A stretch of DNA of 54,489 bases from a virus (IMGVR_UViG_3300012952_000028:1-54489); one strand, 5' to 3'. Shown: positions 9,095 to 23,584, numbered from the stretch's first letter. Numbers and translations: made by a program. Notes: a model not told the origin generated them from the letters alone.

Positions 9095-10519
9095 CTAAGC
9101 ACTTTCAGCTTTTTCTATCTCTTCTAACAATTCTCTAAGAGTAGCCGACCGGAATCGCTTTGCCACCCTCCTACGGGACGCTGTGCGCGCCACCTCTACG
9201 AACTTGAGAGGGTCGAAGGACAGCTCATCTTCCCCGTCCAGTAGAGCCTCTCTAAGACTATTTGCGGCCCTCCCTTGGGAGAAGAACCTCAATAAGATTT
9301 GGGGGTTGATGTAGCTTCCCCGCGTGACCGCGTCAGTATCATGACTGAGAGCCTTTTGAGCCTTCCCGATAGCTTGGTCGAGTGTTCTCACCAAAGCCTC
9401 TACCACCTTGGCTCTCAGCTCTTCCTCTTCCAAGTCAATAAATTCCCGTACCTCGGCTTGAAGGTCAATCTGGGCTTTTCGGATCTCATCAAACACCACC
9501 TCTGTAGCCCGCAGCTTCCGAAAGTCGGTGGGAGAGATCCCCTTGAAGTTCTGCCGGAAGTAGGCACTGAGGTCTTTGGCGGTGAAACGATGGCCGTCTG
9601 GGGTGACGAAGATGAACTTGGAGCCACTCTTCTGGGCCGACTCGACCAGGCTCTTCAAGATTTTAATGACGTTCCCATCACTCAGGGTGGCGACATTAGT
9701 AGAGCTGGCCTTCCCCACGAACTCCAACTCAGCAAAGTTGTCTCGAATGAATCGAACATGGGCGGGTCCCAACGTCACCGCTCCAAATGTCTCCACCGGT
9801 ACCTTTTCCCCGTTGATGGGGTCTCGCACTAAGGTCACGTTGCCCAACTTGCCGGGTCGGATTCCGGTTTCCATGATAATAGCGGTGACCAACGCAGCCA
9901 AACGGGTGACGGGGTCTCCAGAGCGAATGTCTTTCTTGACCTTGGCGACGATTGAGTTGTAACGCTCAAGCAAGTCTCTCATCGTCTCGATCTTCTTAGC
10001 CATGGTCTTGCGCTGGGCTACAAAACGGTCAGTGATCTGCTGAACCTTTCCGTCTTCGTCTACCTCGACCACCAGATTGTCGGGAAGGAATGCCCGCAGC
10101 TCCTCTGGAATCATCGCCTTTAGGGGTTCCTGGGCCTTCCCCAACTCCCGGGCACGGTAGGCCAGAATCATGATCCCTTCGAGTTTCTCGAATGCCTTGT
10201 TGATTCCCAGCGTTCCCAGCCCCAGGTCTCGAATCATATCCATGGTGCGGTTGCGCCATGAGTAGGCTTTGGGGTCGATACTGTCCGGCCCTACCCACTT
10301 ATCAATAAATCCGAGTACGTCACCCCGCTCTTTGAGTGCAGCTTTCAAGAAGCGGGCTTGCCTCTTAGGGTTGTCGGGATGGGCAGCTTGGGCCTCTAAC
10401 ACTACTGGGTCGAGGGCTTTGACAAGCGCACGTAAGTCCCGCCGAGCGATCTTCTTCTTATCCGAGTAGGACTTTACATCCTCTTTGGACCAACTCTTTA
10501 AGCCAGGGTGAAGTGGCAT
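9095..10519 (-). CDS. DNA topoisomerase IB (bacterial/poxvirus-like)
   Basis: Catalytic pentad in order: ETGIRPG (R), LEFVGK (K), DFRKLRAT (R), LSH (H), TRGSYINP (Y); TFGAVTL matches the Topo IB xxGxxTL motif. Confidence 0.85.
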   Translation of the reverse strand: MPLHPGLKSWSKEDVKSYSDKKKIARRDLRALVKALDPVVLEAQAAHPDNPKRQARFLKAALKERGDVLGFIDKWVGPDSIDPKAYSWRNRTMDMIRDLGLGTLGINKAFEKLEGIMILAYRARELGKAQEPLKAMIPEELRAFLPDNLVVEVDEDGKVQQITDRFVAQRKTMAKKIETMRDLLERYNSIVAKVKKDIRSGDPVTRLAALVTAIIMETGIRPGKLGNVTLVRDPINGEKVPVETFGAVTLGPAHVRFIRDNFAELEFVGKASSTNVATLSDGNVIKILKSLVESAQKSGSKFIFVTPDGHRFTAKDLSAYFRQNFKGISPTDFRKLRATEVVFDEIRKAQIDLQAEVREFIDLEEEELRAKVVEALVRTLDQAIGKAQKALSHDTDAVTRGSYINPQILLRFFSQGRAANSLREALLDGEDELSFDPLKFVEVARTASRRRVAKRFRSATLRELLEEIEKAESA

Positions 10520-10526
10520 CTACCAC

Positions 10527-11309
10527 CTACTTGCCCCATTTCTTGACGTACTCTTCAATGCTCTTGAAGATGTCTTGGGTGGGAGTTGAGAGGGGGAAAT
10601 TCTTTTTGTACTTGCCGGGATGGGATTCCATTCCCCCCACCACTTCCAACTTACCGCTTCTCCAGAAGATGTTGAAAAAGTAAGAGTCACCCTTCCCCTT
10701 CACCTCGGCGCGCACGCCGTAGGTTCCAGCAGGAGCGGTTTGAACCTTCCCTCCCAGTAGGCGTCCCAACTTCTTAGCTTCTCGGCCCCAGTAAGCGGAA
10801 AGGGCTTCAAAGGATGAGCTGGGCGCAGCGGTCTTGCTGCTGGCTCGCATGTCTCGGTGAGCTTCCATACGGCTCACATCACGTGCGATATCACTATCCC
10901 CCTTGAGGTCAGCAATTAGGTTGCGACACATCTTACTAACAGACTTCAACTCTCCGACATGGAAGCCTGCTCTCTTGAGTTGGGCGGCCAACTGATCACA
11001 CTTATTGGCCGCCTTGACAAGGTCTTCTTCTGCGGACTTTAAGAGCTTTTCAGACTGGGAGGCGTGGCGGGTGGCCAATCGTTGAGCAGCTTTCTTGAGG
11101 TCGGCTACCTCTTTCTTCATCTCACCCATCTCTTTGACCTCCTTCTCGATCTCTTTCAAGACCTCTTCCTGCTTGGAAGAGAGATCGTGACCTTCAGCCA
11201 TTTGCTCTAAGACGGATTTGAGAAAGTCATTGTCTGGCTTTTTCTCTGCCAGGGCTTTAACTTCCTCGAATTTCTTTTTGATGTCGTCAGCTGTGCGTAG
11301 CATAACCAT
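10527..11309 (-). CDS. hypothetical Lys/Glu-rich protein, possible head-associated protein
   Basis: ATG 11309 (or 11303) is more plausible than 11378, which lies inside the upstream gene. Modular, with RLATRHAS and KTAA linkers. Confidence 0.7.
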   Translation of the reverse strand: MVMLRTADDIKKKFEEVKALAEKKPDNDFLKSVLEQMAEGHDLSSKQEEVLKEIEKEVKEMGEMKKEVADLKKAAQRLATRHASQSEKLLKSAEEDLVKAANKCDQLAAQLKRAGFHVGELKSVSKMCRNLIADLKGDSDIARDVSRMEAHRDMRASSKTAAPSSSFEALSAYWGREAKKLGRLLGGKVQTAPAGTYGVRAEVKGKGDSYFFNIFWRSGKLEVVGGMESHPGKYKKNFPLSTPTQDIFKSIEEYVKKWGK

Positions 11310-11333
11310 TCCTAATGAGGTTACACCTAAATG

Positions 11334-11349
11334 AGATAGCCGTTTTATT
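11334..11349 (-). promoter_or_regulatory. candidate promoter motif AATA-N6-CTATCT
   Basis: Reads aataaaacggctatct upstream of the 11309/TopoIB/GS run; same spacing as the other copies. Confidence 0.35.
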
Positions 11350-11536
11350 GACCGCCGCCGTAGCCGTCTGCTGCCCAACCTCCTCCTTTTAGGGAGAAAG
11401 AGGTTCGAGAGATCATCTTGGTCGCATTATCCCCCTTACATTTTGGGCAGGGAGGGACCACTTCTCTCTCATCATGCTTCATAAGCCTCTCAAACTTATG
11501 GCCGCAGTCTTCACATTTGAATTCAAATAGGGGCAT
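11345..11536 (-). CDS. FmdB-family zinc-ribbon protein
   Basis: MPLFEFKCEDCGHKFE...CPKC...SFSLKGGGWAADGY is the classic FmdB pattern. Confidence 0.9.
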   Translation of the reverse strand: MPLFEFKCEDCGHKFERLMKHDEREVVPPCPKCKGDNATKMISRTSFSLKGGGWAADGYGGGQ

Positions 11537-11819
11537 ACCAGTGCGCCTCCTCGTCTACATCATCAATACCCTCTTCGTCCTCCTCATCCTCTTCGCAGTC
11601 AAAGGGGTCTTTGAAACAATCCCTCACTTCCCACTTAGCTTGGAGTTGGTGAAGTTCTCGGGCTTCGCGGGTGAGGATGGTAGCACTTCCATCCTCACCA
11701 ACACTTTCCATATAGATGCTCAAGGCATCAAAGAGGCGAGAATAGTTGTCCTCTTTCGCCCGATCTACCCTAATTATCAAATCTGATACAGCATTCTTCA
11801 AATCAACGAGAGGGTCCAT
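11523..11819 (-). CDS. hypothetical protein with acidic C-terminus
   Basis: 98-aa ORF in a minus-strand operon. Confidence 0.65.
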   Translation of the reverse strand: MDPLVDLKNAVSDLIIRVDRAKEDNYSRLFDALSIYMESVGEDGSATILTREARELHQLQAKWEVRDCFKDPFDCEEDEEDEEGIDDVDEEAHWYAPI

Positions 11820-11826
11820 TCCTCAT

Positions 11827-12240
11827 TTATCCTTTGGCGTCGCAACGCTCCCAATCAGCTTGCGCTTTTTTATTTTGCATAAGGGTTTCAGCTACAGAAA
11901 AATCCCAACTAACCTTTCCGCACGGGTTGTCTTGTACTGGGTCGAACCAAGAACAGGTGGGGCAATATTGACTCGGCCACACCACGTTCTCCTTGCCCAC
12001 CCCTAACAATGATAGGCGTTCTACCTCTTGCCCCGAGGTCTGGCCTTCCATTAAAGTGAGGGATACCGTACATCCCCCCTTTTCCAACAGGGACTTAAGG
12101 TTAGCCGCTTCTTGGGTAGACAGGACCAAATGACTGACGGTGGTTCCCCCGTCGTGGTCCACGGCAGGGTTCGCAGGAACCGCTATTTGAAAAGCACTCC
12201 CTCCTTGAATCCACAAGGTGTAGAGTTGTTGGTCAGTCAC
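11827..12240 (-). CDS. hypothetical protein with CxxC motif
   Basis: 137 aa; YCPTCSW...PCG. Confidence 0.65.
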   Translation of the reverse strand: MTDQQLYTLWIQGGSAFQIAVPANPAVDHDGGTTVSHLVLSTQEAANLKSLLEKGGCTVSLTLMEGQTSGQEVERLSLLGVGKENVVWPSQYCPTCSWFDPVQDNPCGKVSWDFSVAETLMQNKKAQADWERCDAKG

Positions 12241-12586
12241 TACTCCGTGCCCCGTCTCTCCATCTCTCCAACCACTCTACTTCTTGAGGGGTATGGGACT
12301 GCCCGCCGTTGCACACTTTGAGGTCAAACCCGCCGGGATACTCCGGAATGGGATCGGAATACGCCTTCACGCTTATGACGCGCCCATGTTGATCCCTCCA
12401 TGACGATCCGTAGCACGATGCTCTCGTTAAAGTGGCTGCCACTGTATTCCGCACGTACTTCAACTCACTTTCAGGCGTGAGAAATACCAAGGGGCGCGTA
12501 GACCCCTTCTCTTTATGGTGGATGGTTCTGCATACGCAATCGGATGAAAGTCTCATGATGCCCTCTTGTAAAGATTCAAAGTCCAA
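12233..12586 (-). CDS. hypothetical protein
   Basis: 117-aa ORF filling the operon gap; start uncertain. Confidence 0.55.
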   Translation of the reverse strand: MDFESLQEGIMRLSSDCVCRTIHHKEKGSTRPLVFLTPESELKYVRNTVAATLTRASCYGSSWRDQHGRVISVKAYSDPIPEYPGGFDLKVCNGGQSHTPQEVEWLERWRDGARSSD

Positions 12587-13518
12587 CCAAATTGCCGATT
12601 GGAGATGCCGTCAAAGCGAACCACCTCCACTAAGAAATGGTCCAGTCCTTGGCTGGCCGCTTCCTGGGCAAAGTAAGCTGTGGCTAAAGTGATAGGATTA
12701 CACCCTTCCGAGATGTCTTCCGAGCCGAACACTTGCAGCACCCACCGAAAGGATTTCAGAAGGGTGTCAGAAGCGCCAGCTGAAACCCTCAAGCCTCGTT
12801 TTTCCAATTCCCCCACCAATTCTCTTTCGATAACCGGGGCGACAGAGCGGCGTCCTTGGGTGGTGGCTATCGCCAGATAGACGCACTCTCTTTGTTGCTC
12901 AGGCGCAAGTAAGGCTGCTTCTGTAGGGAACGCATCCACTTGTCTTAAGGAGGGTAGCTGACCCGCCTCATAGCCAGGAACCCCCGTAGGAGCCGGGAGC
13001 TGGGGTTGGCCTGAGGGAATGAGGGCTGTCTCCTTAACATGTTCCTCTAACGCTAATTTCATCTCTTCTCTCACTTCCTCAGACGCCCTTTTGAGCATGA
13101 GCCCAATCAAAACTGGATCGGAAGAGGTTGCCTCTACAGGCACTGCGGGAGTGGCGTCTGGAGGGAGAGGTCCCGAGCGAAACTCTGGAACATCCCCATC
13201 TACTGATGCCCTCTCCATCAAGGCTGCCTCATAGACTGGGTTGAGCTGAGGAACGCCCGTGGAGGTTTCCATTTCTATGGGGCGGCCCACCTTTTCCATG
13301 TCCTGAGGGGACATCAACGCGGTGAGCTTAGACCCTTCTTTAGCCACGTCTTCTAAGAGTTGGGCTTCGGAAAGCAGGGAGAATAGATGGGGGACCGCCT
13401 CCTCCATCGTCAGCTCCCCCGACCTGATTTGCTCGTAAATCTCTTCCGCTCCGGGTACCCTCGCAACGAGGTCGCTTACCTTCCCCAAGAGTTGTAGAAT
13501 ATCGTCTTGCTGGCTCAT
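12553..13518 (-). CDS. hypothetical protein
   Basis: 321-aa ORF; no motif recognised. Confidence 0.75.
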   Translation of the reverse strand: MSQQDDILQLLGKVSDLVARVPGAEEIYEQIRSGELTMEEAVPHLFSLLSEAQLLEDVAKEGSKLTALMSPQDMEKVGRPIEMETSTGVPQLNPVYEAALMERASVDGDVPEFRSGPLPPDATPAVPVEATSSDPVLIGLMLKRASEEVREEMKLALEEHVKETALIPSGQPQLPAPTGVPGYEAGQLPSLRQVDAFPTEAALLAPEQQRECVYLAIATTQGRRSVAPVIERELVGELEKRGLRVSAGASDTLLKSFRWVLQVFGSEDISEGCNPITLATAYFAQEAASQGLDHFLVEVVRFDGISNRQFGWTLNLYKRAS

Positions 13519-13520
13519 GG

Positions 13521-14603
13521 CTATTCCGCTTTGAACATGTCTAAGACAGGGGTGGATTCCCCTCGTTGCCGTACCTTTCTACTTTGAGAGATACCCTCCA
13601 AGCGGCTCTTAGCTTCGGGCAAAGAAGCAATATTCACATCTATTCCGATGTAATTTCTCCCGTGGTCCAAAGCTGCACTTCCCGTGGTAGCGGTTCCTGA
13701 AAAGGGATCGAGAACCGTGGCGGGCCGAAACCCGTCATTATGCCCGCAGCTGAGAATCCAACACCCATTCTCAACACGGGGAGGCGTGCCGCAAGTGGCA
13801 CAAACCCCCTTTTCAGGCGTTGAGGCTAAGATCATCGGCTCTACTAAGTCATAGGGCCACGGGGATACTGACTTACCCAAGTAGGAGCCCAAATTGACTT
13901 TCCAAACTGTTCCCTTGTTCTTCCCCTTAGGGTGCCATGCCTTTTCTAAGTCAGGGCGTTTAGCCCACCCTCCAGCCATAATTGTCCCTTTGTTGTAGCC
14001 CTTTACGTGCTTCTCATCTTGAGACTTATGAGCCTCCCTCAAAGGATCGGCGTTGTAGAAGTATTGACCCCCGCTCTCCGGGTGTGCCAATAAGAAGAGG
14101 GTTCCGTGGGATTGGGATAATCTATCGGTATGAGCGCCAAACCCTGTCGGGTTGTCGGGAGCCCAGATAATGTCATTACGAACAACCCACCCATCTGCCT
14201 GAAGAGCTAAGGCTACGCGGGTGGGGATGAGGCCGAGTTGCTTGTTGTCAAGGTAACGGTCCCTCACGTAAATCCACGCCGTCCCGTCCTTTCTCAAGAA
14301 TGTCTGCACTTTTCGCATAGCCAGGACGCAGTGGCCGATAAACTCTTCCACTGTGGCTTCCATCCCCAGCACGCTTTCTTGAGCGGCTACTTTGATAGGC
14401 CTGGAATCGACAAAGGGGGTGTATGAAAATCGGGGCCATTGGACCGCCTCTCCATCCGATTGTCCAGGGACGGGAAACTCCGCGCAAACCACATGAACGC
14501 TATGGTCGGGCAAGCGAGCGTCCAGTACAGATGACCCATAAATAAGGGTAGCTGTAGGGGACTTATCGCCTAATTTCGGCTTCAAGTAGATGGGTTCAAC
14601 CAT
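13521..14603 (-). CDS. beta-class N4/N6 DNA methyltransferase homolog with degenerate catalytic motif
   Basis: Collinear with phage beta-MTases (LPDHSVH, LGMEATVEEFIGH, LRKDGTAW, IPTRVALALQADGWVVRNDIIW, VLDPFSGTATTG, YIGIDVN), but TSPPY is replaced by AEFPV. Confidence 0.85.
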   Translation of the reverse strand: MVEPIYLKPKLGDKSPTATLIYGSSVLDARLPDHSVHVVCAEFPVPGQSDGEAVQWPRFSYTPFVDSRPIKVAAQESVLGMEATVEEFIGHCVLAMRKVQTFLRKDGTAWIYVRDRYLDNKQLGLIPTRVALALQADGWVVRNDIIWAPDNPTGFGAHTDRLSQSHGTLFLLAHPESGGQYFYNADPLREAHKSQDEKHVKGYNKGTIMAGGWAKRPDLEKAWHPKGKNKGTVWKVNLGSYLGKSVSPWPYDLVEPMILASTPEKGVCATCGTPPRVENGCWILSCGHNDGFRPATVLDPFSGTATTGSAALDHGRNYIGIDVNIASLPEAKSRLEGISQSRKVRQRGESTPVLDMFKAE

Positions 14604-14621
14604 GTGACCTCCACTTAAACA

Positions 14622-14792
14622 TTAGGGTTTAGGGGTGTCGGACAACCCCCCAACAAAGACTATTCTCATGGTGTTCCGCTTCCCGTTCCGTCGAATACGA
14701 ACTGCGGACTTTTCAGGTACTTGCACCCCTCGCGCTTCCAGGGCTTCCTTGAGGAGTTGGACTATCTCGGGTTGTTCCAAGACGATTTCCAT
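14622..14792 (-). CDS. small hypothetical protein
   Basis: MEIVLEQPEIVQLLKEAL...; ATG 14792 overlaps the dioxygenase TGA. Confidence 0.6.
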   Translation of the reverse strand: MEIVLEQPEIVQLLKEALEARGVQVPEKSAVRIRRNGKRNTMRIVFVGGLSDTPKP

Positions 14793-15946
14793 CACTCTTC
14801 CCCAAACAATTCTTGTAAGTAGGCCACCTCTTCCTCCATCTTTTGAAGAGTCTCTTGATGCCTCTCCCGGTTCAAGGCAGCCTTTTGCTTGGAGGTGAGG
14901 AAAGTGGACTTCCACTTCGCATATTTAGCGGCCTCCTCTTCTTGGGAAGCGCAATGTTTCATCCTTACTCGGGCATAACACACCACGCTTATGCGCTCAT
15001 AATCATCCCCTACAGGTACCATGGGGGTGTTGCAATGCCACTGATGAACGTCCATCGCAAGGAAGTCTCCCGTCCTGACATCTACAGCCACCCGAAACTT
15101 GGGAAAGCCTGTGTAGCCCCCTTTGTAGGGGTCTCCCTCAATAACGGTGAGGTTCCCAAACCCTTGGGGGAAGTCTCCCGCGTCTTTGTGGGCGGCGGTT
15201 CTCCAGTTACGGTTCACAGTAATGGTGGTGAAGACAGTATCCCCTAAGGTCCAGCCGTTAGGGGAGATACCCGTATCCTCCACGAATTGCTTTTGGGCCA
15301 GCCATCGTTGGGGAGCTTGGTTACGAAAGCACTGGCTCACCGCTTCCAAGTATGGCACTGCTGCTTCAGTGCGGCCAGGGTTGGCTTTGGTGTAGCCAGT
15401 CTGACGACAGAACGGGTGCCTCTCTTCGGCGTTGTAGTATCCGGCAACCCCACTGTTAGAGAGGTTAGCAATATCTACTTTAGACACGGTGCCGTCCTCA
15501 AGGACATATCGGGCGCGAGTGCCGCTGCCTCCCAGCATGACCAACTTCCCTTTGGCGGTAGCCCGAACTCGAGAGGGGTCAATCTTGCCGCTGGCCAACC
15601 CTCGGTTATCGGCTTTCTTGGCTGCTCCCCGAAGGTGCTCCGCAGCAGTGTCGCATAAGTCTTGGGGGATCACCCCTTTCCGAAAAGAGAGTAGGAGGCG
15701 ATCTTCCACGTCCTCTTCACTAAACATAGAGATGGCATCAGATGCCCCTGGCCGGTAGATGTCGCAATCGCGGTTTACGATGATAGCATAGTGATCCTCA
15801 TCAATAAACTCCCCGCCTAAGCGATCTACCTCATAATCGGGGAGGATGCCAGGACCGCTCAACTCTATCTTGAGGATGCCTTGCTCTTCCCACTCCCAAC
15901 CTTCCAGGTCCCCCCGTCTAAAGGGCGTGGCGTCAGATGGCCTCAT
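14792..15946 (-). CDS. TET/JBP-family 2OG-Fe(II) dioxygenase (5-methylpyrimidine oxygenase)
   Basis: TVFTTITVNRNWRTAAHKDAGD (HxD), GNLTV, GGYTGFPKFRVAVDVRTGDFLAMDVHQWHCNTP (distal H), ERISVVCY (2OG-binding R): the phage TET/JBP signature. Confidence 0.88.
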   Translation of the reverse strand: MRPSDATPFRRGDLEGWEWEEQGILKIELSGPGILPDYEVDRLGGEFIDEDHYAIIVNRDCDIYRPGASDAISMFSEEDVEDRLLLSFRKGVIPQDLCDTAAEHLRGAAKKADNRGLASGKIDPSRVRATAKGKLVMLGGSGTRARYVLEDGTVSKVDIANLSNSGVAGYYNAEERHPFCRQTGYTKANPGRTEAAVPYLEAVSQCFRNQAPQRWLAQKQFVEDTGISPNGWTLGDTVFTTITVNRNWRTAAHKDAGDFPQGFGNLTVIEGDPYKGGYTGFPKFRVAVDVRTGDFLAMDVHQWHCNTPMVPVGDDYERISVVCYARVRMKHCASQEEEAAKYAKWKSTFLTSKQKAALNRERHQETLQKMEEEVAYLQELFGEE

Positions 15947-16218
15947 TCCTTCCCCATTAAGGTGCGGGCACTTTGGAGAATGAGCGTGTCTTCCTGATCC
16001 AGGGTTTCCAAGACTGATGGCTCTACCTTCTCAGCCAAAGTGCATAAGACTTTGGCGAATCCCCTCACCTGCTTAGTTTCAGAAGTGATTTCAGCTATAT
16101 CCTGCTTGTGCTCTTCTACTTGTTTGAGGAGGTCAGCGACTTTTGAAAGGTCATTGCTCTTCAATGAAGACTTACGCGCAAGGCGTTGTAAATTTCGGCG
16201 TTGTTTGCGATTGGCCAT
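15943..16218 (-). CDS. hypothetical basic coiled-coil protein
   Basis: ATG 16218 (MANRKQRR) after SD AGGAG; ATGA overlap with the dioxygenase. Confidence 0.65.
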   Translation of the reverse strand: MANRKQRRNLQRLARKSSLKSNDLSKVADLLKQVEEHKQDIAEITSETKQVRGFAKVLCTLAEKVEPSVLETLDQEDTLILQSARTLMGKE

Positions 16219-16260
16219 AAGTACTCCTACCTCCCTCATTACCCGCACCAGTCCATCCCC

Positions 16261-17386: not shown

Positions 17387-17411
17387 AGGGTAGAGTCAAG
17401 GGGAGGCTACT

Positions 17412-18305
17412 GTGAAGATCCCCGACTTATGGAATAACTGTTACGATGGCGAACATCGTAAAGCGATGTCTCCGGAAGAGTTCAAAAAGACCTTCTGCGA
17501 TGTGTGCATGAACTCAGGCTGCACTAACTCTAAAGGTGCGGGTACTCAGTGGATGAAGAGGATGATGACCCAAGAGGATCGTCTCCTAAACAATCCTAAT
17601 TTCGCCAACACAAGTGATCCCCGCTTCTCTGGCTTCGCCGAGATGGACTTCAAGAACATGATGCAACAAGCGTTGGCCATTGAGATTGCTGACCGCAAAG
17701 GGGATTGGGAAATTCCCACCCAAGAGGAGATCGGCCAAGCAGCAGCCGAGATGCTGGGGATGATCCCTCCACCTGCCTTCCAACCAGAACCTGAACCTGA
17801 ACCAGAACCTGAACCCGAACCAGAACCTGAGCCAGAACCGGAGGCACCCCCTCAGCGTCTGGTAGATGAGGTGGGGCAGACTGACATCGAAGGGAAACGG
17901 GTCCAACCTGAGCGTGAGTCTGAACCTGAAGAGGATGAGGTAAAGGGACGCTGGAACGTCAAAGGGGACAGCGGCAACCTTTACACCGTAACTCAACACG
18001 AAGACGGCTCATGGGACTGTACTTGTCCGGCGCGGAAAGAGTGTAAGCATATTCGGGGCCTGCAGACTAAGTTGTCGAGAATTGCCCCCGAGCCAGTCAC
18101 CGAAAATCCAACACGTCCTCCTCCTGGAGCTTTCACCCGAACCCCTCAGGCTATGAACACCGCGCAACCTTCGGGCGGCGTGCTGTTAGGAGGACCACCG
18201 CCTCCCCCCACCCCCGAAGTGGATCCTTGGGCTGCTCCCCCCACCAAACCTAAAGAGCGAGTCATTGAGGTTGGGGGAAAGGTGACGTTTGGAAAGAAGA
18301 GTTAG
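17412..18305 (+). CDS. SWIM zinc-finger protein with (PE)n linker
   Basis: VKGDSGNLYTV...WDCTCPARKECKHI (CxC-xn-CxH SWIM); N-terminal Cys cluster; SD GGGAGG before GTG. Confidence 0.8.
   Translation: MKIPDLWNNCYDGEHRKAMSPEEFKKTFCDVCMNSGCTNSKGAGTQWMKRMMTQEDRLLNNPNFANTSDPRFSGFAEMDFKNMMQQALAIEIADRKGDWEIPTQEEIGQAAAEMLGMIPPPAFQPEPEPEPEPEPEPEPEPEPEAPPQRLVDEVGQTDIEGKRVQPERESEPEEDEVKGRWNVKGDSGNLYTVTQHEDGSWDCTCPARKECKHIRGLQTKLSRIAPEPVTENPTRPPPGAFTRTPQAMNTAQPSGGVLLGGPPPPPTPEVDPWAAPPTKPKERVIEVGGKVTFGKKS
17784..17843 (+). repeat. (Pro-Glu)10 coding repeat
   Basis: ccNgaR hexamer tandem array in frame. Confidence 0.85.
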
Positions 18306-18775
18306 CTCAAGCTGAACTGATCTCCTACCACTACTAAAGTATGGCGATCCTCTTTCCATGCTTGAGCTACAGTGCGGAAGAGAGCGAGAGTTGTTTCGCT
18401 TCCTCCTAATATAGGAGGGTCATAACATGCTGGTGGTCCCGGTTGCTTACGGGTTCCACCGGGTCGGCAGACACCCTCATTCCAATCAATACAGTTACCG
18501 GCCATAGCGCACTCTCCCTCGGCCTTTAGGACGCGCCGTGCCGAGTCTTGGGGGCTACGCCCTAAGACTTCTAAGAGGGGCTGCATAAAGCCGTGTAGGG
18601 CGTGAGAGAGGACTTCCCCCGGTATTACCCCAACCCCCTCGGCCCAGCTGGTCCCTCTTAAGGGTTCCAACTCCCCCCAATCCTCATCGCTTCCATTAGT
18701 GATGAGAAGGAGGACCTTCTCCGAATGGGCGCGACCATCCCCCATAGGGTCATCGGTGAGGTCAATCTCCCTCAT
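18302..18775 (-). CDS. hypothetical Cys-containing protein
   Basis: 157 aa, four Cys; overlaps the upstream MTase fragment gene. Confidence 0.65.
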   Translation of the reverse strand: MREIDLTDDPMGDGRAHSEKVLLLITNGSDEDWGELEPLRGTSWAEGVGVIPGEVLSHALHGFMQPLLEVLGRSPQDSARRVLKAEGECAMAGNCIDWNEGVCRPGGTRKQPGPPACYDPPILGGSETTLALFRTVAQAWKEDRHTLVVVGDQFSLS

Positions 18776-19169
18776 CAGCTTTTACCTGTTTGAAGAAGCG
18801 GGATGCCCCGCCCGTATCTGAAATCGAGGAGGTAGGAGCCGACCTTCCAGACCCCCAAATACTACTTACGCCATTTGCCTTAGACTCTCGGTGGTTGTCG
18901 CCCAACTCTCCTGTTTGCTCATCTAAGGCTTTTACGGGGCATCCCTCTACGCAGATCCAGTTGGTCCCTGTGACCTTCTTGACCCCCTCGCACCTACAAC
19001 CATCGAGATGCTGGAGGATCAGGTTGGCGGGCCATCTTCCCCCCACTGGCCTTTCCCCTGTTCCGATGCGGGAAGCGTCAATATTCAAAGCCCCGGTGCC
19101 GTGCTTCAGCACGTTCTGGGCTACGGACCCTTCAGACTTAGGTTTACGGAGTACGTGGATCACTTTCAT
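18762..19169 (-). CDS. split DNA methyltransferase, middle (TRD/insert) subunit
   Basis: MKVIHVLRKP..GSVAQNVLKHGTGALNIDASRI...GRWPANLIL...GGASRFF is the central segment of phage beta-class MTases. ATG 19169 in ATGA overlap. Confidence 0.8.
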   Translation of the reverse strand: MKVIHVLRKPKSEGSVAQNVLKHGTGALNIDASRIGTGERPVGGRWPANLILQHLDGCRCEGVKKVTGTNWICVEGCPVKALDEQTGELGDNHRESKANGVSSIWGSGRSAPTSSISDTGGASRFFKQVKADEGD

Positions 19170-19759
19170 AGCTTGTAGCCGATCACTACGGGTTCCCAAG
19201 CAGGCTTCAAAGCGGTGCCCCAGCCTTCCCACTTTTGGCCTTCTTTAGTCGCAGCGGTTGTTACCCGCATGGGGGCTAAGGGCTTATCCTCTCGCAATCC
19301 GTGCGCCACCAAATCTCCATCGAAGCCTCTACTGCCATGACGGTGGGCGGGTCGATGGTTAGGGTTTGGCCCCACCGCGATAGATTGCACTCCTAATGAT
19401 TTGTCGATAGCCTTCCCAATATTCAAAGACTTGGGGAAGCCGGAGCCATAGGCCCAGGCTTCGAGAGATATGTTCTGAAATCCCACGTCCTCCATAGCAG
19501 CTGCTAAGTGATGTAAGGTACGGGTTCCACCGAAGGCTTTGATAATCCCTCCGGGCTTCAAAACCCTGTAGGCTTGTTCCAGCCAATCCTTATGCCATAA
19601 CCGTTGGGCTTCTCCCTCCCCTAAGTCGTCAAACTCTTTCCCCATAAACTTCAACCCGTAGGGAGGGTCACACACAAAAGCCTCTACGGAGCCTTCCGAA
19701 AGCTCTTTCATCACGTCAACGCAGTCACCGTGCCTCAAATCAATCGTCTGTAAAGCCAA
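19166..19759 (-). CDS. split DNA methyltransferase, catalytic (DPPY) subunit
   Basis: HGDCVDVMK, VCDPPYGLKFMGK, RVLKPGG, FGGTRTLHHL, WAYGSGFPKS, WEGWGTALKPAWEP; no FxGxG motif. Confidence 0.88.
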   Translation of the reverse strand: MALQTIDLRHGDCVDVMKELSEGSVEAFVCDPPYGLKFMGKEFDDLGEGEAQRLWHKDWLEQAYRVLKPGGIIKAFGGTRTLHHLAAAMEDVGFQNISLEAWAYGSGFPKSLNIGKAIDKSLGVQSIAVGPNPNHRPAHRHGSRGFDGDLVAHGLREDKPLAPMRVTTAATKEGQKWEGWGTALKPAWEPVVIGYKL

Positions 19760-20510
19760 AGAACTCCCCCATTGACATTTCAGGTGCCTCTTCCATTACC
19801 ACTTCCCGGTCGGATTTTATTACAGCATTATCCCAAGCCATCGCTCTTTCGTTCCAATGGCGAACACGGGAGTCTGCTATGGCGTGGTACTCCTCGCTCT
19901 TTTCGATCCCGATCCCGTCATGGCCGGTGGCTAAGCAAGCGATCATCGTAGTACCGGAACCCATGAAAGGATCTAATACCACGCCCTCCACGCCGTCTAA
20001 GACCTTCTCCATGACCTCTACGGGCTTTACCGTAGGATGGATGTTGCGACGTTGCTGAACGCGATTCATACCCACTGTTCCCGGCTTGTCAAACTCGTAG
20101 TCTTCGCCGTCTTCAATGGCTTGGCGTGCCCCCCGAGACATTCCAAATGTCTGAACCGGAAGGTGGGTGAGGCCCTCTTCCCTCTCAGAGCGCGATGCTT
20201 TGGGCGTATAGTGAATGGTGCTCCCCTCCTGAGCCAAAAAGATCGCATCCCTCACCTCAAACCCCAAGGATTCCGCTTCCGATGCCCCCGTATGTCCCGT
20301 GGGCTCATCGTCTGGGGCTATTAAGAATAGGTGCCCGCCCGGTTTTAAGACACGGTACGCCTCATCTACGGCTGACGCATCCTCTAAAACGATAGCGTGT
20401 ATAGAGGCATCGTCATGCTGACCCCACCCGTACCCTTCCGAAGCATGGATACAAATGCCATCTTCAGGGGTCGCTAAACCTTCCAGATAATTACCAATTG
20501 ATTGGGTCAT
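19740..20510 (-). CDS. split DNA methyltransferase, SAM-binding subunit with degenerate catalytic half
   Basis: YTPKASRSEREEG, NIHPTVKP, VLDPFMGSGTT, GIGIEKSEEY. The N-terminal half keeps RVLKPGGH and GFEVRD but has no DPPY. Confidence 0.85.
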   Translation of the reverse strand: MTQSIGNYLEGLATPEDGICIHASEGYGWGQHDDASIHAIVLEDASAVDEAYRVLKPGGHLFLIAPDDEPTGHTGASEAESLGFEVRDAIFLAQEGSTIHYTPKASRSEREEGLTHLPVQTFGMSRGARQAIEDGEDYEFDKPGTVGMNRVQQRRNIHPTVKPVEVMEKVLDGVEGVVLDPFMGSGTTMIACLATGHDGIGIEKSEEYHAIADSRVRHWNERAMAWDNAVIKSDREVVMEEAPEMSMGEFFGFTDD

Positions 20511-20679
20511 TAGCTGGTGGCGTGGGCCGTTCCTTATCTTGACGCGATTGGAGCGCCGAGCGGATGGCCTTTAGAGGGGCATTGGGAAACTGAGCTTTGG
20601 TCTGTTTTCGGGTAGGGCATACCTTTTGTGCATTCACCCACTCTTCGACCTCATTTCTCATGTCACGGCTTTCAAACAA
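20491..20679 (-). CDS. small basic hypothetical protein
   Basis: TTG start 7 nt after SD AAGGAGG; first gene of the MTase operon. Confidence 0.6.
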   Translation of the reverse strand: MFESRDMRNEVEEWVNAQKVCPTRKQTKAQFPNAPLKAIRSALQSRQDKERPTPPANDPINW

Positions 20680-20731
20680 GGGTTGTCCTCCTTCATTAGA
20701 CAGTCTACATTACCCTCGACGCTACCTCTCA

Positions 20732-20755
20732 CGCCCCCCAATAGTTTGTCAATAA
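20732..20755 (+). promoter_or_regulatory. candidate promoter: CGCCCCCCAATAG box plus TA-N6-CAATA motif
   Basis: Shares an identical 13-mer with 16261-16273; upstream of gene 20800. Confidence 0.5.
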
Positions 20756-20799
20756 AGCCCGAGGATGGGTGAGAGCCTCTTTACTTTTGGAGAACTATA

Positions 20800-21585
20800 A
20801 TGGCCAATGCATATATCTGTCGTATGCGGAGTGATATGGGCTCGGGAGCTGCCGGTGAAGCTGCCGGAAACAGCAGCTTTCAGTTGACTGACCTCACTCC
20901 CAACTCTTCTCAATACTCTATCTACGAAGTCCCTTCTCGGGGTTTCTATGAGTTTGGTGGCACGGATCTGTCCGCATACGGACAGAGCGGTTACATCGGA
21001 CCTTTTGTGGACTTCTTGAACGGTCCCAAGGCTGATTGCACCAACACCACCGTCAACCCTGCTCCCCAATGGGCCACTGACGGAACGAACGGCGTGACGC
21101 AGTTTGCTTACAGTGGATTGGCTGCCTACTTCTTGGATAACATCGACGCTGGAGCAGGCGGGGTTGCCCTCACTCCGGCCCAAGCTGCTAACTGCGCGGC
21201 CCGCGTTATCGTGATCATGCAAGCCGGAACCGCTCTTAACACAGCTGCTATCAACGGCGCACTGGCTGCTGGTGGCGGTGGGGGAACCGGACTTGCTCTT
21301 GGTGCCTCCACAGGAACCGTGGAAGAGGTTCTCTCGATCTGCTCCGGAGCGGTGTACAACCTCCCTGCAAGCTCGCAAGTGGAAGCCCCCATGGGAGCGT
21401 TCAACGCAAGTCGTCAGGGATCTTTCAATGCCGGCAAGTACCGGACTTTCTACGACACATCGGAGTTAGATGAGTCCTTCAGCGCGGGCGAGCTTTCCGT
21501 GTACTCGGATGCTTCCTTCTCTTACTTAGGCACTACTGGTGCTGCGGTGGTGGTCTACGAAGCTGACGGCACTGTTAAGAGCTAA
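20800..21585 (+). CDS. Gly/Ala/Ser-rich putative virion structural protein
   Basis: Stand-alone gene with SD GGAG, candidate promoter and strong terminator. Low-charge composition typical of virion proteins; function is inference. Confidence 0.65.
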   Translation: MANAYICRMRSDMGSGAAGEAAGNSSFQLTDLTPNSSQYSIYEVPSRGFYEFGGTDLSAYGQSGYIGPFVDFLNGPKADCTNTTVNPAPQWATDGTNGVTQFAYSGLAAYFLDNIDAGAGGVALTPAQAANCAARVIVIMQAGTALNTAAINGALAAGGGGGTGLALGASTGTVEEVLSICSGAVYNLPASSQVEAPMGAFNASRQGSFNAGKYRTFYDTSELDESFSAGELSVYSDASFSYLGTTGAAVVVYEADGTVKS

Positions 21586-21604
21586 GGTACTCAGGCTCTA
21601 AGAG

Positions 21605-21632
21605 AAAAGCCTCCCTTCGGGGAGGCTTTTTT
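21605..21632. terminator. bidirectional intrinsic terminator
   Basis: AAAAGCCTCCC-TTCG-GGGAGGCTTTTTT, a perfect stem with a C(UUCG)G loop, between convergent genes. Confidence 0.92.
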
Positions 21633-21888
21633 ATTTCCTGTGGCGGATGGCTTTAGGAGGGGTGGAGTCTAAACGCTTTACGCAAGCACATGTCTTGCAC
21701 TTGTCGCCCATCTCGGTAAGCCCACAGACGCGCTCCCAAACCTTGAGTTGCTCGTATACGTGCTCATTTACTCGGGGGTCGTTGACGCGAGCCACCTCAC
21801 TACTTCCCCATCTCTTAATCTTGAAGGGGGGCCATACTTTCTTATGAATGCAAGACCACGTAATGGGGCCTTCAACAACGTCTTTCAT
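21631..21888 (-). CDS. small Cys-rich hypothetical protein
   Basis: 85 aa; VCG...KCKTCAC; ATGA overlap with the upstream gene. Confidence 0.6.
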   Translation of the reverse strand: MKDVVEGPITWSCIHKKVWPPFKIKRWGSSEVARVNDPRVNEHVYEQLKVWERVCGLTEMGDKCKTCACVKRLDSTPPKAIRHRK

Positions 21889-22697
21889 AAAGTCTCCTGA
21901 TAAGCAGAAGCTACACGGGAAGCAGATGCTAACCGCACCGCCCCATATTGAGCCTCATACCAATCAAGATACCCGTCCTCATCAAAGTCATCGACTTGAG
22001 AGCGTCCCAGACGCTTCACCACAGCGGCAAACACCACATCGTTAAGAGGGAGCCATGCGAAAGAGCCAGGTGGTATAGGGGTGCCGGTGATTGCGCTCAG
22101 GGCAGCCGGGAGGACGATGTTCTCAATCACCTCTCCTATTCCGTAAATGACGCCCACTTTCCACCCGTGTTGCTTCACGGCTCTCATGACGGTCTTGAAG
22201 ATTTCCCGAGGGTTGACAGCTTTCCAAGCTGACTCCATGGCTTTGATGGCTACTTGCTCGGTGACCTCACTCCGGAACTCTTTGATCTGCTCTTGGACTA
22301 CTTGACGCTTGATGCCTGAGGGGAGGTCTCTCCCGTCCCACTTATGAGCGTTTTCCCAACCCCAACTGTAGCCGAGGTAGTAGTCGTCCGAGTTTCCGCG
22401 CTCGGGGTCTTCCCCGGCCCACCCCCGGAGTTTCTCAAAGCGACCTTCCTGAGCGCCCTCTAAGAACTCGGTAACGTCCTCGTCAATCTCTTCCTCGCCG
22501 ATCCCCTTCACTAACTCAGGAGCGAGATCCCTGAAAATCTCATCCGTCAAGTCATCAATGGGGCCAAACACCAAATCTTTGTATTTCTTGGAAAGCACGC
22601 TCCAAGGCTGGACCATCCACTTCAGCCACTCTTTGGCGGCGGCTTCTTTGATCACATACCTATTAGCTACTCGGAGCGGACACGTTCTCACGATCAA
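21885..22697 (-). CDS. hypothetical protein with RVANRY / RVASAY tags at both termini
   Basis: 270-aa ORF with a hydrophobic segment near the C-terminus. Confidence 0.75.
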   Translation of the reverse strand: MIVRTCPLRVANRYVIKEAAAKEWLKWMVQPWSVLSKKYKDLVFGPIDDLTDEIFRDLAPELVKGIGEEEIDEDVTEFLEGAQEGRFEKLRGWAGEDPERGNSDDYYLGYSWGWENAHKWDGRDLPSGIKRQVVQEQIKEFRSEVTEQVAIKAMESAWKAVNPREIFKTVMRAVKQHGWKVGVIYGIGEVIENIVLPAALSAITGTPIPPGSFAWLPLNDVVFAAVVKRLGRSQVDDFDEDGYLDWYEAQYGAVRLASASRVASAYQETL

Positions 22698-23584
22698 TCC
22701 ATATAGATGAAGTCCATCTCGTCTTGGAGGGAGCTAAAGGACTTCCACATCACTTTAGCCATATCACCCAACCGATGGCGTTCTAAGATTTGCTTGATCT
22801 TTTGAGCTACGTCGGGACGCCCTGCTAAGGCCAATCCTAACTGACGGAAAGCTGCTAATTGCTTGGGCTTGGACAGGAAGCCTGGTCCCCACGATTCCAC
22901 AAAGCGGGCTGCTACGCGACAACTTCCGGCGCATTGACACTGGCCCCCGCTCTGACAAGGATGCTCCTCTTCTTCTGAACCGTAGTCCGGTTGAAGCATG
23001 AGGGGTTGAAGTAAGACCGCTTCCTTTCGGCCCCTCCAAGCCTTGTCGATTATCTGGGGGACTTTCTTCATCTTGAGTTGGTTGACCGCCTCGTCGAGGC
23101 CCGCCTTTTTAAGAACGGCCATCAACTGGGACACCAATTCAGGAGCGTTGTATTTGTTGAAGGCGAGACGCTTCCGGCTAATCTCGGGATCGCTCAGATG
23201 GGTGTTGATGTTTAAACCCCGACCCGTACCGCGCCTAAAGAGGTGAGCTACTTCTTTGCGGGAGAGTTGATTATCCGGTGCAGTACTGGGCTTGCCCCTT
23301 TCCAGCAGAGACGCGGACCCGTCCTCGTTAACCAGGAAGGGGAGGTTCATCTTTGAACTGTACTGCCCCATGCCCGCAATGTCAGTGTAGTGGGACAAAG
23401 CAGTAAACACGGTGCCGGGAGGGGGAGGAGATGCCGCACTTTTGAAGTTGTGGTCGGGCTTCATACGCTTATAGATTCCCATAACATAGGCGTAGTTGCC
23501 CTTTTTGCCTTGGGATGCCGCGATGGCCTCTGCCTTCTCCCACTTCTTTTCGTCTTCGGGGGTCTTGACTACATTAAGGGGCAT
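22694..23584 (-). CDS. modular hypothetical protein with short N-terminal helical domain (possible head-associated protein)
   Basis: MPLNVVKTPEDEKKWEKAEAIAASQG..NYAYVMGIYKRM domain, then KSAA, KEA and RVAARF linkers. Confidence 0.75.
   Translation of the reverse strand: MPLNVVKTPEDEKKWEKAEAIAASQGKKGNYAYVMGIYKRMKPDHNFKSAASPPPPGTVFTALSHYTDIAGMGQYSSKMNLPFLVNEDGSASLLERGKPSTAPDNQLSRKEVAHLFRRGTGRGLNINTHLSDPEISRKRLAFNKYNAPELVSQLMAVLKKAGLDEAVNQLKMKKVPQIIDKAWRGRKEAVLLQPLMLQPDYGSEEEEHPCQSGGQCQCAGSCRVAARFVESWGPGFLSKPKQLAAFRQLGLALAGRPDVAQKIKQILERHRLGDMAKVMWKSFSSLQDEMDFIYMD

What the first reader, a model, noticed from the sequence alone, without database searches (positions are those of the whole stretch)
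9095..23584. Recurrent R-[VL]-A-x-R-[FYH] peptide tag on unrelated proteins: candidate capsid-cargo addressing/processing system
Seen: RVAKRF (9152-9169, tail of Topo IB), RLATRH (11064-11081), RVANRY (22656-22673) and the variant RVASAY (21900-21917) at the two ends of one protein, and RVAARF (22901-22918). They lie at termini or domain junctions, usually next to [KR]-x-A sites (RTAS, RSAT, RHAS, KTAA, KEAA, RLAS, KSAA). The four proteins are otherwise unrelated and fall in two operons, each behind the TA-N6-YTAT motif shared with tail genes. Known: T4 and phiKZ head proteins carry capsid-targeting propeptides removed by the prohead protease. Inference: this is a portable packaging tag plus protease site marking proteins for loading into the head and injection.
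Basis: partly seen in the sequence, partly recalled or inferred. Interest (0 to 1): 0.78.

Follow-up and report, generated by a model that had tools for sequence, protein, structure and literature searches.

The report
Portable peptide tag in huge phages
A ten-residue peptide (about S-A-x-R-V-A-x-R-Y-L) recurs at the ends and domain joints of many unrelated enzymes in a group of uncultured, very large phages, and most likely works as a shared address label whose destination is still unknown.

Summary
Inside the window alone the recurrence is not convincing. It is 4 hits against 0.04 expected, but 200 of 200 shuffled proteomes hold some equally extreme pattern when the post-hoc choice of motif is allowed for.

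Comparison with relatives settles it. The motif is kept at the N- and C-ends of the P0003 family while the flanks drift. It is enriched about 30-fold in the Topo IB family tails over the cores. It follows a common 50-residue module in P0004-like proteins (48 hits against 0.9 expected). It recurs in neighbouring ORFs of eight related viral contigs (21 against 0.86).

Tagged proteins include Topo IB, 2H/LigT, CCA-adding-type, HAD_SAK, GNAT, zincin and papain-like peptidase domains. The tag is predicted helical and amphipathic and works at either end or between domains.

My best reading is a docking or address helix for one common receptor, possibly the prohead interior (confidence 0.4). Processing by a protease, or a cytoplasmic hub, remain open. 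No virion evidence exists.

The parts
9095..10519 (-). Topoisomerase IB gene (474 aa) with a tagged C-terminal tail
   Evidence: Pfam PF01028 Topoisom_I, E 7.6e-14, 52.1 bits against a cut-off of 23.7. 146 homologues at E<=1e-20, on contigs up to 392 kb.
9152..9169 (-). Tag copy RVAKRF, in the context TASRR-RVAKRF-RSATLRELLEE
   Evidence: The same position holds RVAKRF, KVARRY and RVARRF in the three closest homologues.
10527..11303 (-). Gene of unknown function. The longest ORF runs to 11378; the identical database protein has 258 aa, which gives a start at 11303.
11064..11081 (-). Tag copy RLATRH (off-consensus: L at position 2, H at position 6)
   Evidence: The four close homologues have RLATRH, RIATKF, RIATKY and RLATKH.
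21885..22691 (-). All-helical protein of unknown function with a hydrophobic helical hairpin, tagged at both ends
   Evidence: AlphaFold2 gives mean pLDDT 69.9 and helices only. No PDB fold match.
22656..22673 (-). N-terminal tag RVANRY
   Evidence: 15 of 25 homologue N-tails carry the motif, against 0.04 in shuffles.
21900..21917 (-). C-terminal tag variant RVASAY, preceded by VRLASAS
   Evidence: 8 of 22 homologue C-tails match strictly and 18 of 22 loosely, against 0.02 and 0.9 in shuffles.
22694..23584 (-). Mosaic protein (296 aa) made of small modules that recur in hundreds of other proteins
   Evidence: 389 library proteins at E<=1e-3, matching residues 1-53, 47-140 or 136-190 separately.
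22901..22918 (-). Internal tag RVAARF, after a Cys-rich stretch and before the last module
   Evidence: In the 85%-identical P0039 the tag (RVAYRY) is kept but the module after it is different.
23426..23584 (-). N-terminal ~50-residue module (MP..VVKT..DE.KW.KA...A...G...NYAY.MGIYK.M.PD). In about half of its relatives the tag follows directly; here it does not.
23664..23675 (-). TA-N6-YTAT promoter-like site upstream of the 22694-23584 gene
11336..11347 (-). TA-N6-YTAT promoter-like site upstream of the probable start at 11303

Best explanation
The window is about a tenth of the genome of an uncultured, very large phage. In this lineage a short linear motif, consensus [KR]-x-A-S-A-x-R-V-A-x-R-[Y/F/W/H]-[L/A], is attached to many unrelated proteins by flexible linkers. 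It occurs at the N-terminus (typically M-x-P-S-P-x-RVAxR-aromatic, residues 7-12), at the C-terminus, or between two domains, and sometimes in two copies.

I read it as an amphipathic helical docking tag that brings all these proteins to one common receptor. The most likely destination is the inside of the assembling head, so that a dispersed toolkit is loaded and injected with the DNA. That toolkit includes Topo IB, RNA-repair enzymes, peptidases, acetyltransferases and a membrane-active helical protein. Trimming at or near the tag is possible.

Shown: the motif exists, is conserved, is portable, is independent of position, is predicted helical, and is specific to this lineage.

Inferred: that it binds a receptor.

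Speculative: that the receptor is in the prohead.
For: (1) Conservation against drifting flanks.
- P0003 family: 15 of 25 N-tails and 8 of 22 C-tails carry [RKN][VI]A.[RQ][FYHW], against 0.04 and 0.02 in shuffles.
- 28 of 29 members that could be anchored at both ends have a strict or loose tag at one end at least, and 21 of 29 a strict one. Members that lack it at one end usually have it at the other.

(2) Portability.
- Topo IB tails: 17 of 116, against 0.07 in shuffles. Density is 2.8 per 1000 aa in tails and 0.09 in cores.
- P0004-like proteins: 48 hits in 46,060 aa, against 0.9.
- ORFs around P0003 homologues in 8 viral contigs: 21 hits in 51,496 aa, against 0.86.
- Back-translated pattern: 7 and 3 hits in two related records against 1 and 1 for the reversed control. 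In the cultured jumbo phage Motura it is 2 against 2.

(3) Junction position in fusions.
- The tag lies between the 2'-5' RNA ligase-superfamily domain and the Topoisom_I domain (L006).
- It lies before the PolyA_pol domain and again at the C-end (L011).
- It lies between extra domains and the P0003 core (P0027, P0030, P0021).

(4) Helix.
- AlphaFold2 puts the tags in helices: P0003 7-25 and 259-269; P0105 43-59 and the end of 126-154.
- The helical hydrophobic moment of the consensus is 0.56, against 0.28 for a strand.

(5) Cargo-like repertoire. Tagged proteins carry InPase, 2H, HAD_SAK_1, NUDIX, RNA ligase, Peptidase_C39_2, WLM/YgjP zincin, GNAT and DUF4258 domains. This overlaps the domains that PMC5512222 (passages) assigns to proteins injected with phage DNA.

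(6) Local context. In the window the P0004-P0003 pair directly follows the large structural-looking gene block on the same strand and shares a TA-N6-YTAT site with it.
Against: - There is no virion, proteomic or binding evidence of any kind.
- No capsid, portal, scaffold or prohead protease was recognised in the window or in two related records. Whether head proteins carry the tag could therefore not be tested.
- The large structural-looking ORFs of the window (24.5-54.4 kb) have no copy.
- Adjacency to structural genes is not conserved in relatives.
- Many Topo IB tails hold only degenerate versions: 99 of 116 lack the strict motif.
- Within the window the recurrence fails a family-wise test.
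- RNA-repair and DNA-topology enzymes could equally act in the cytoplasm.
- The AlphaFold2 helices at the P0003 N-end have pLDDT below 50.
Confidence: 0.4

Rival explanations
1. The motif is the recognition and cleavage site of a phage-encoded protease. That could be a prohead protease or a zincin or papain-like peptidase travelling with the cargo. It would cut modular precursor proteins into separate domains and trim termini, and need not have any targeting role.
For: - The motif sits at domain junctions in fusion proteins, and the same domains occur as separate genes elsewhere.
- Small residues (S, A) precede it.
- Tagged neighbours include a WLM/YgjP-like zincin and Peptidase_C39_2 domains.
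- PMC5512222 (abstract and a passage) proposes that zincin-like peptidases process polyvalent proteins.
- Known phage maturation systems reuse one short motif in many head proteins (PMC10052503, passages).
Against: - Many copies lie 4-20 residues from a C-end or 6-11 residues from an N-end, where a cut would release nothing useful. They are nevertheless conserved there.
- The motif is predicted helical and amphipathic rather than extended.
- The position after the invariant Ala is free, so no P1' preference is seen.
- About nine constrained positions is long for a protease site.
Confidence: 0.2
2. The tag docks enzymes onto a cytoplasmic partner rather than the capsid. That partner could be a scaffold that assembles an RNA-repair and DNA-processing complex, a phage-made compartment, or an AAA+ unfoldase or adaptor that recognises terminal tags to control timing or turnover.
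For: - It has the same features of a position-independent terminal helix as in the best explanation.
- Most tagged domains act on nucleic acids (Topo IB, 2H, PolyA_pol/CCA-type, HAD_SAK_1, RNA ligase, NUDIX) and could work together.
- Terminal accessibility is typical of unfoldase recognition tags (general knowledge, recalled).
- PMC7824862 (passage) notes ClpA-, ClpX- and BCS1-type ATPases in jumbo phages.
Against: - No candidate hub or ATPase was identified here.
- The tagged set also includes a hydrophobic-hairpin protein and peptidases, which fit a repair complex poorly.
- The overlap with the injected-protein domain repertoire favours delivery.
Confidence: 0.2
3. The motif is a structural linker or helix cap that travels with modules when they are shuffled, and it has no dedicated receptor.
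For: - It is always next to module boundaries.
- In P0039 and P0004 (85% identical) the sequence diverges completely right after the tag, as expected at a shuffling joint.
Against: - Five specific side chains are kept across more than ten unrelated families, with different codons.
- Copies at extreme termini have nothing to link.
- The N-end or C-end distribution in the P0003 family is complementary.
- Some homologues have doubled copies.
Confidence: 0.1
4. It is a chance recurrence picked out post hoc.
For: Family-wise test within the window: 200 of 200 shuffles contain an equally extreme pattern.
Against: All the comparative enrichments, which are 25- to 400-fold over shuffles in four independent protein families and in neighbouring ORFs of eight contigs.
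Confidence: 0.02

Closest known systems
T4 capsid targeting sequence (CTS) of internal proteins, and the prohead-protease propeptides of phiKZ/SPN3US-type giant phages
   Same: One short peptide element is shared by otherwise unrelated proteins. In those phages it directs proteins into the prohead and is then removed. Those phages also load many ejection proteins (PMC10052503, passages; listings).
   Different: - Those elements are N-terminal and end in a cleavage site after Glu (A-X-E in SPN3US; L/I-x-E in T4 is recalled).
- This tag has no conserved Glu and occurs at the N-end, at the C-end and internally.
- It is predicted helical.
- No protease or virion link is shown for it.
Cargo-loading peptides of encapsulins and encapsulation peptides of bacterial microcompartments (recalled, not tested here)
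   Same: Both are short amphipathic helices at either terminus, joined by a flexible linker, portable between enzymes, and bound by the inner face of a protein shell. The encapsulin shell has the HK97 capsid fold.
   Different: - The sequence is different.
- The carrier is a tailed-phage lineage.
- No shell protein was identified. PF05065 was not found in the three fragments.
- Internal junction copies are unusual for those systems.
Polyvalent proteins of phages and conjugative elements (Iyer et al. 2017, PMC5512222)
   Same: The repertoire of disparate conflict-related domains overlaps (InPase, 2H, zincin-like and papain-like peptidases, GNAT; against passages). Processing and delivery with the DNA are proposed for them.
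   Different: - There the domains are tied together covalently in one giant polypeptide.
- Here most are separate or small fusion proteins, each carrying a short common tag.
- No MuF-type or other virion-anchoring domain was seen.
Phage-specific type IB topoisomerases of jumbo phages (PMC7824862, passage)
   Same: The window's 474-aa protein is a PF01028 Topo IB. Five invariant residues (R221, K270, R334, H393, Y403 in 43 aligned homologues) have spacing compatible with the catalytic pentad. The assignment to the pentad is recalled and was not tested structurally.
   Different: - tblastn found no match in 50,697 phage records.
- The Motura topoisomerase has no such tail.
- The tagged, acidic-helix C-terminal tail is particular to this lineage.

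Membership tests
T4-type capsid targeting sequence / giant-phage prohead propeptide | Located at the N-terminus of the precursor | tested here: not met
   Copies occur at N-termini, at C-termini and between domains.
T4-type capsid targeting sequence / giant-phage prohead propeptide | Ends in the prohead-protease site (cut after Glu: A/S/G-X-E or L/I-X-E) | tested here: not met
   The logo of 86 instances has no conserved Glu within 14 residues on either side. The A-X-E motif is from PMC10052503 passages.
T4-type capsid targeting sequence / giant-phage prohead propeptide | Tagged proteins are present in proheads or virions, and the tag is sufficient to load a foreign protein | not testable with these tools
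   The lineage is uncultured and no proteome is available. No cultured relative was found.
Encapsulin / microcompartment-type cargo peptide | Short amphipathic helix at a terminus, joined by a variable linker | tested here: met
   Predicted helices. Helical hydrophobic moment 0.41-0.56. Variable linker length after the N-module. Several of the helices have low pLDDT.
Encapsulin / microcompartment-type cargo peptide | A cognate shell protein that binds the peptide | tested here: inconclusive
   PF05065 and PF07068 were not found in G000, G001 or G002. These records are estimated to be 10%, 36% and 59% complete, and the PF07068 control rang nowhere.
Polyvalent proteins (Iyer et al. 2017) | Two to fifteen domains of disparate activity in one polypeptide | tested here: inconclusive
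   Some tagged proteins are multi-domain: 2H+Topo IB, GNAT+AAT+GNAT, and N-module fusions of up to 1327 aa. The four window proteins are small, with one to four modules.
Polyvalent proteins (Iyer et al. 2017) | Characteristic domain repertoire (peptidases, nucleic-acid and nucleotide enzymes) | tested here: met
   InPase, 2_5_RNA_ligase2/LigT, NUDIX, Peptidase_C39_2, WLM/YgjP and GNAT. InPase, 2H and zincin MPTase are named in passages of PMC5512222.
Type IB topoisomerase (PF01028), for the 9095-10519 gene | Match to the catalytic-core profile above the curated cut-off | tested here: met
   52.1 bits against 23.7, E 7.6e-14.
Type IB topoisomerase (PF01028), for the 9095-10519 gene | Catalytic Arg-Lys-Arg-His-Tyr pentad | tested here: inconclusive
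   R221, K270, R334, H393 and Y403 are invariant in 43 homologues. Their identification with the pentad rests on recalled spacing, not on a structural alignment.

The most novel reading that the evidence does not exclude
Very large uncultured phages use a position-independent, ten-residue peptide 'zip code' to load a dispersed arsenal into the capsid for co-injection. The arsenal includes topoisomerase IB, tRNA/RNA-repair enzymes, peptidases, acetyltransferases and a membrane-active protein. A common non-covalent address would replace the covalent linkage seen in polyvalent proteins. If so, the tag is a ready-made, transferable packaging signal, and scanning for it would list the injected proteome of an uncultured phage clade from sequence alone.
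Probability: 0.3. Interest if true: 0.8.

Novelty: new variant of a known kind. Interest (0 to 1): 0.62.

Why it matters
Shared short address peptides are known for T4 internal proteins, encapsulins and microcompartments. None has been described for the uncultured phages of several hundred kilobases, whose biology is known almost only from sequence. No paper in the searchable library contains RVAARY, RVASRY or RVAxRY, and searches on prohead cleavage motifs and capsid targeting returned only the T4 and phiKZ/SPN3US systems.

A conserved tag that marks more than ten unrelated enzyme families gives a sequence-only way to define a functional set of proteins in these phages. It points to a missing common receptor or protease that can be searched for. 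If it is a packaging signal, it offers a small portable tag for loading proteins into large capsids. It also shows that a Topo IB and RNA-repair enzymes belong to the same addressed set, which bears on how such phages start infection.

Tried and rejected
- DNA-level repeat or regulatory site as the cause: rejected, because the codons differ between copies.
- Close DNA or protein relatives among 50,697 phage records: none for the region, P0003, P0001 or the N-module of P0004. P0105 gave only a 39-residue N-module match in Achromobacter phage Motura, on a protein without the tag.
- Single-protein scan of viral contigs with P0003: nothing. The alignment-based scan worked.
- PHROGs and Pfam on the window's large ORFs: almost nothing, and no head genes.
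- PDB sequence search with the 3714-aa ORF: nothing.
- Protein atlas for the 396-aa ORF: no usable hit.
- Foldseek of the P0003 model against PDB: no match at E<=0.001.
- Capsid families PF05065 and PF07068 in G000-G002: not found. The PF07068 control rang nowhere.
- A longer shared upstream word, TTTAGGTRYA: 10 matches against 6.7 expected, not significant.
- Idea that the 50-residue N-module is the receptor of the tag: one complex prediction (N-module 1-58 with Topo IB tail 436-474) returned 'no answer' (score 0.01, controls not run). This says nothing either way.
- Idea that the tag is an integral third helix of the N-module: not supported. Only about half of the module's relatives have the tag, and the linker length varies.
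- Conserved synteny with structural genes in relatives: not found.
- Supplementary tables of the cited papers were not seen. They could list cleavage sites or domain architectures relevant to the comparison.

Full report
WHAT THE WINDOW IS

The window is the whole of its assembly: one linear contig of 54,489 bases. The collection's CheckV estimate rates it 10% complete. Homologues of its proteins sit on contigs of 150-392 kb, and two related records are rated 36% and 59% complete at 152 and 266 kb. It is therefore a fragment of an uncultured, very large tailed phage. No record among 50,697 deposited phages resembles it in DNA or in the proteins tested.

Most genes are on the minus strand. A block of very large ORFs without family matches fills 24.5-54.4 kb (947, 3714, 786, 1635, 509, 1138 and 396 aa). 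The region of the finding holds:
- a type IB topoisomerase;
- a DNA-modification set, made up of a glutamine-synthetase-like protein, an N6/N4 methylase and a Tet/JBP oxygenase;
- several ORFs of unknown function.

THE OBSERVATION

The strict pattern R-[VL]-A-x-R-[FYH] occurs four times in 45 greedily chosen ORFs (17,786 aa). Within-protein shuffles expect 0.04, and none of 2000 reached four. In the six-frame translation it occurs five times, four of them in the called frames. The codons differ from copy to copy, so the repeat is a protein feature, not a DNA word.

A relaxed scan finds no further convincing copy in the window, and none in the large structural-looking ORFs.

Two cautions apply.
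- The motif was defined after it was seen. When I asked how often any reduced-alphabet five-of-six pattern is as extreme, 200 of 200 shuffled proteomes had one. On the window alone the finding would be unproven.
- The neighbouring [KR]-x-A-[AST] sites are not more frequent than chance in the proteome (38 against 31.7, P 0.15).

COMPARATIVE EVIDENCE

(a) P0003 family (33 database relatives, 43-100% identical; 26 aligned).
- The conserved core is flanked by tails that vary in length and sequence, except for the motif.
- N-ends read, for example, M-S-P-S-P-V-K-I-A-A-R-Y or M-H-Q-P-S-A-S-R-V-A-S-R-H-L.
- C-ends read V-R-L-A-S-x-S-R-V-A-x-x-Y.
- 15 of 25 N-tails of at least 10 residues, and 8 of 22 C-tails of at least 8 residues, match [RKN][VI]A.[RQ][FYHW]. 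Shuffles of the same tails give 0.04 and 0.02.
- 29 members could be anchored at both ends; 4 of the 33 were dropped for lacking an anchor. Of the 29, 21 have a strict tag at one end at least, and 28 have a strict or loose one. Members without an N-terminal copy tend to have a C-terminal one, and the reverse. The loose pattern is permissive, matching 0.9 of 22 shuffled C-tails, and it will over-call in the 200-residue N-extensions.
- Some members have two N-terminal copies (P0022, P0026, P0035).
- In longer relatives the motif lies at the joint with an extra domain (P0027, P0030), or closes the extra domain (P0021).

(b) Topo IB family (146 relatives at E<=1e-20, best 120 read).
- After the conserved F-D-P-x-x-F comes a tail with a motif-like element, an acidic helix (T-L-R-E-L-L-E-E-L-E), and often a second copy near the end, such as P-S-P-V-R-V-A-R-R-Y.
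- 17 of 116 tails match strictly, against 0.07 in shuffles.
- Density is 2.8 per 1000 residues in tails and 0.09 in cores.
- Tryptophan is also accepted at the last position.
- 99 of 116 tails lack the strict form. Many of these show degenerate versions such as S-V-A-A-A-W.

(c) P0004.
- It is a mosaic. Library proteins match its residues 1-53, 47-140 or 136-190 separately: 389 at E<=1e-3, with the best 150 read.
- In those 150 proteins (46,060 aa) the motif occurs 48 times, against 0.9 expected and a maximum of 4 in 200 shuffles.
- Most copies come directly after the 50-residue N-terminal module, or directly before the 'F-N-K-Y-N-A-P-E-L' module.
- Only about half of the N-module's relatives have the tag, and the linker length varies. 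The tag is therefore a separate element.
- The 85%-identical P0039 keeps the tag but continues with a different module.

(d) P0002. The four close relatives (61-90% identical) read RLATRH, RIATKF, RIATKY and RLATKH. More distant relatives share only the N-terminal module and lack the tag.

(e) Neighbourhoods.
- A back-translated pattern hits two related records 3 and 7 times, against 1 and 1 for the reversed control.
- Read in frame, four hits lie 3-13 residues from an ORF end. Two lie at inner positions of long ORFs, one of them confirmed to be between Pfam domains. Two lie near the ends of very short open frames and two look like chance.
- In 8 viral contigs fetched around P0003 homologues, two of which are near-identical, ORFs carry 21 copies in 51,496 aa, against 0.86 expected. 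Seven are at residues 7-12 and five are within 20 residues of the end.
- The cultured jumbo phage Motura, which has the N-module on a NUDIX-like protein, shows no enrichment (2 against 2).

THE MOTIF

From 86 distinct instances (chosen with [RK][VI]A.R[FYHW], so those five positions are fixed by the selection), the flanks also show preferences:
- S 55% at -3;
- A 49% or P 14% at -2;
- K or R at -5 and -6;
- L 42%, A 27% or V 10% at +6;
- A or S at +8.
The position after the invariant Ala is free.

AlphaFold2 places the tags in helices. In P0003 these are helix 7-25 (pLDDT below 50) and helix 259-269. In P0105 they are helix 43-59 (pLDDT 84 falling to 68) and the end of helix 126-154. The consensus has a larger helical than strand hydrophobic moment (0.56 against 0.28). 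V, A, Y and L fall on one face and the two Arg residues on the other. The six strings tested gave 0.41-0.56 helical and 0.17-0.45 strand, and for two of them the values were about equal.

WHO CARRIES IT

- Topo IB.
- A fusion of a 2'-5' RNA-ligase-superfamily domain with Topo IB, with the tag between the two Pfam domains.
- A PolyA_pol-type (CCA-adding-like) enzyme with a variant before the domain and a copy at the end.
- HAD_SAK_1.
- A WLM/YgjP-like zincin with an N-terminal copy.
- Peptidase_C39_2.
- A protein with GNAT and AAT domains.
- SWIM.
- DUF4258.
- Among the N-module proteins: InPase, LigT, RNA ligase, NUDIX, KTSC, DUF3846 and PAP2.

Passages of Iyer et al. 2017 (PMC5512222) name InPase, 2H and zincin-like and other peptidases among the domains of 'polyvalent proteins'. 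They argue that these proteins are injected with phage or plasmid DNA and processed by peptidases.

HOW IT MOST LIKELY WORKS

The element is short and specific. It is joined by variable linkers and is interchangeable between the N-end, the C-end and joints. It is sometimes doubled and is predicted to be an amphipathic helix. That is the profile of a docking peptide for one common partner.

The overlap with the injected-protein repertoire points to the prohead interior as the destination. So does the presence of a protein with a hydrophobic helical hairpin (P0003). In the window, so do the position of P0004-P0003 directly after the structural-looking block and the shared TA-N6-YTAT site. I give this reading 0.4.

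What is shown is the motif and its behaviour. Binding is inferred, and the capsid is a guess. Against the capsid reading:
- nothing links any tagged protein to particles;
- no head gene could be recognised, so their termini could not be checked;
- the adjacency to structural genes is not kept in relatives.

RIVALS

A protease site (0.2) fits the joints and the tagged peptidases. It does not explain conserved copies a few residues from a terminus, the helical prediction, or the free position after Ala.

A cytoplasmic hub, compartment or unfoldase tag (0.2) fits the nucleic-acid enzymes and the terminal positions equally well, and it cannot be excluded.

A passive linker (0.1) and chance (0.02) are unlikely, given the residue-specific conservation across many families.

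COMPARISON WITH KNOWN SYSTEMS

In function the closest are the T4 capsid targeting sequence and the giant-phage propeptides. Those are N-terminal and end in a cut after Glu (PMC10052503, passages). The tag fails both features.

In form it is closer to encapsulin and microcompartment cargo peptides (recalled), but no shell partner is known.

In cargo it resembles polyvalent proteins, but with a shared tag in place of covalent linkage.

No paper in the searchable library contains the motif strings.

VERDICT

I rate it a new variant of a known kind (shared addressing or processing peptides), in a lineage where nothing of the sort has been described.

Noticed in passing
window 27710-38854 (-): A single 3714-aa ORF with no Pfam family at E<=0.01 and no PDB sequence match at E<=0.1. 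It sits in a block of other very large ORFs without matches (947, 786, 1635, 509 and 1138 aa).
   Followed up: partly
window 7969-9102, 13521-14603, 14792-15946 (-): A glutamine-synthetase-like protein (Gln-synt_C/N), an N6/N4 DNA methylase and a Tet/JBP 2OG-Fe dioxygenase lie close together next to the Topo IB gene. This looks like a DNA base hypermodification pathway.
   Followed up: no
window 19166-19759 and 19740-20510 (-): Two adjacent overlapping ORFs each match part of the N6_N4_Mtase profile in permuted order. The upstream ORF matches profile positions 156-219 and the downstream ORF matches 2-89. This could be a split, permuted or frameshifted methylase.
   Followed up: no
window 1168-5067 (-): A 1299-aa ORF with an N-terminal H-type lectin domain (PF09458, E 2.8e-10). 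It is a candidate receptor-binding or fibre protein.
   Followed up: no
window 7969-9102 (-) and L017 4527-5618: The glutamine-synthetase-like protein is 82% identical to one in a related contig where the P0003 homologue is only 48% identical. Either conservation is unusually strong or the gene was exchanged recently.
   Followed up: no
window 53578-54402 (-): A 274-aa ORF with an acidic proline-rich repeat region. The Pfam match to Trypan_PARP (E 9e-7) is far below that family's cut-off, so this is compositional only.
   Followed up: no
window minus-sense sites at 52381, 38940, 23675, 16281, 11347: TA-N6-YTAT lies in five upstream gaps of minus-strand gene groups. Four of the 15 minus-sense copies fall in the 1,277 non-coding bases. 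This is a possible promoter element shared by the structural-looking block and the tagged-protein genes.
   Followed up: partly
L013 4001-4813 (Achromobacter phage Motura, MN094788.1 108240-109052): The 50-residue N-module of P0004-like proteins also heads a Motura protein annotated as 'A/G-specific adenine glycosylase', a few genes downstream of that phage's topoisomerase. The module is therefore wider spread than the tag.
   Followed up: partly
P0003 and P0002 families (alignments A1, A4): A second recurring junction word, hydrophobic-R-L-A-[S/G/T], precedes linkers in two unrelated families: G-x-V-R-L-A-S before the C-terminal tag of P0003 relatives, and A-E-H-L-R-L-A-S before K-T-A-S-D-I-K in distant P0002 relatives.
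   Followed up: no
P0004 residues ~205-222 and relatives P0039, P0040, P0052: Cys-rich stretches (C-x-C, C-G-G-S-C) repeatedly lie next to the tag. In P0052 two tags flank such a stretch. A possible metal site is associated with the tag in this subfamily.
   Followed up: no
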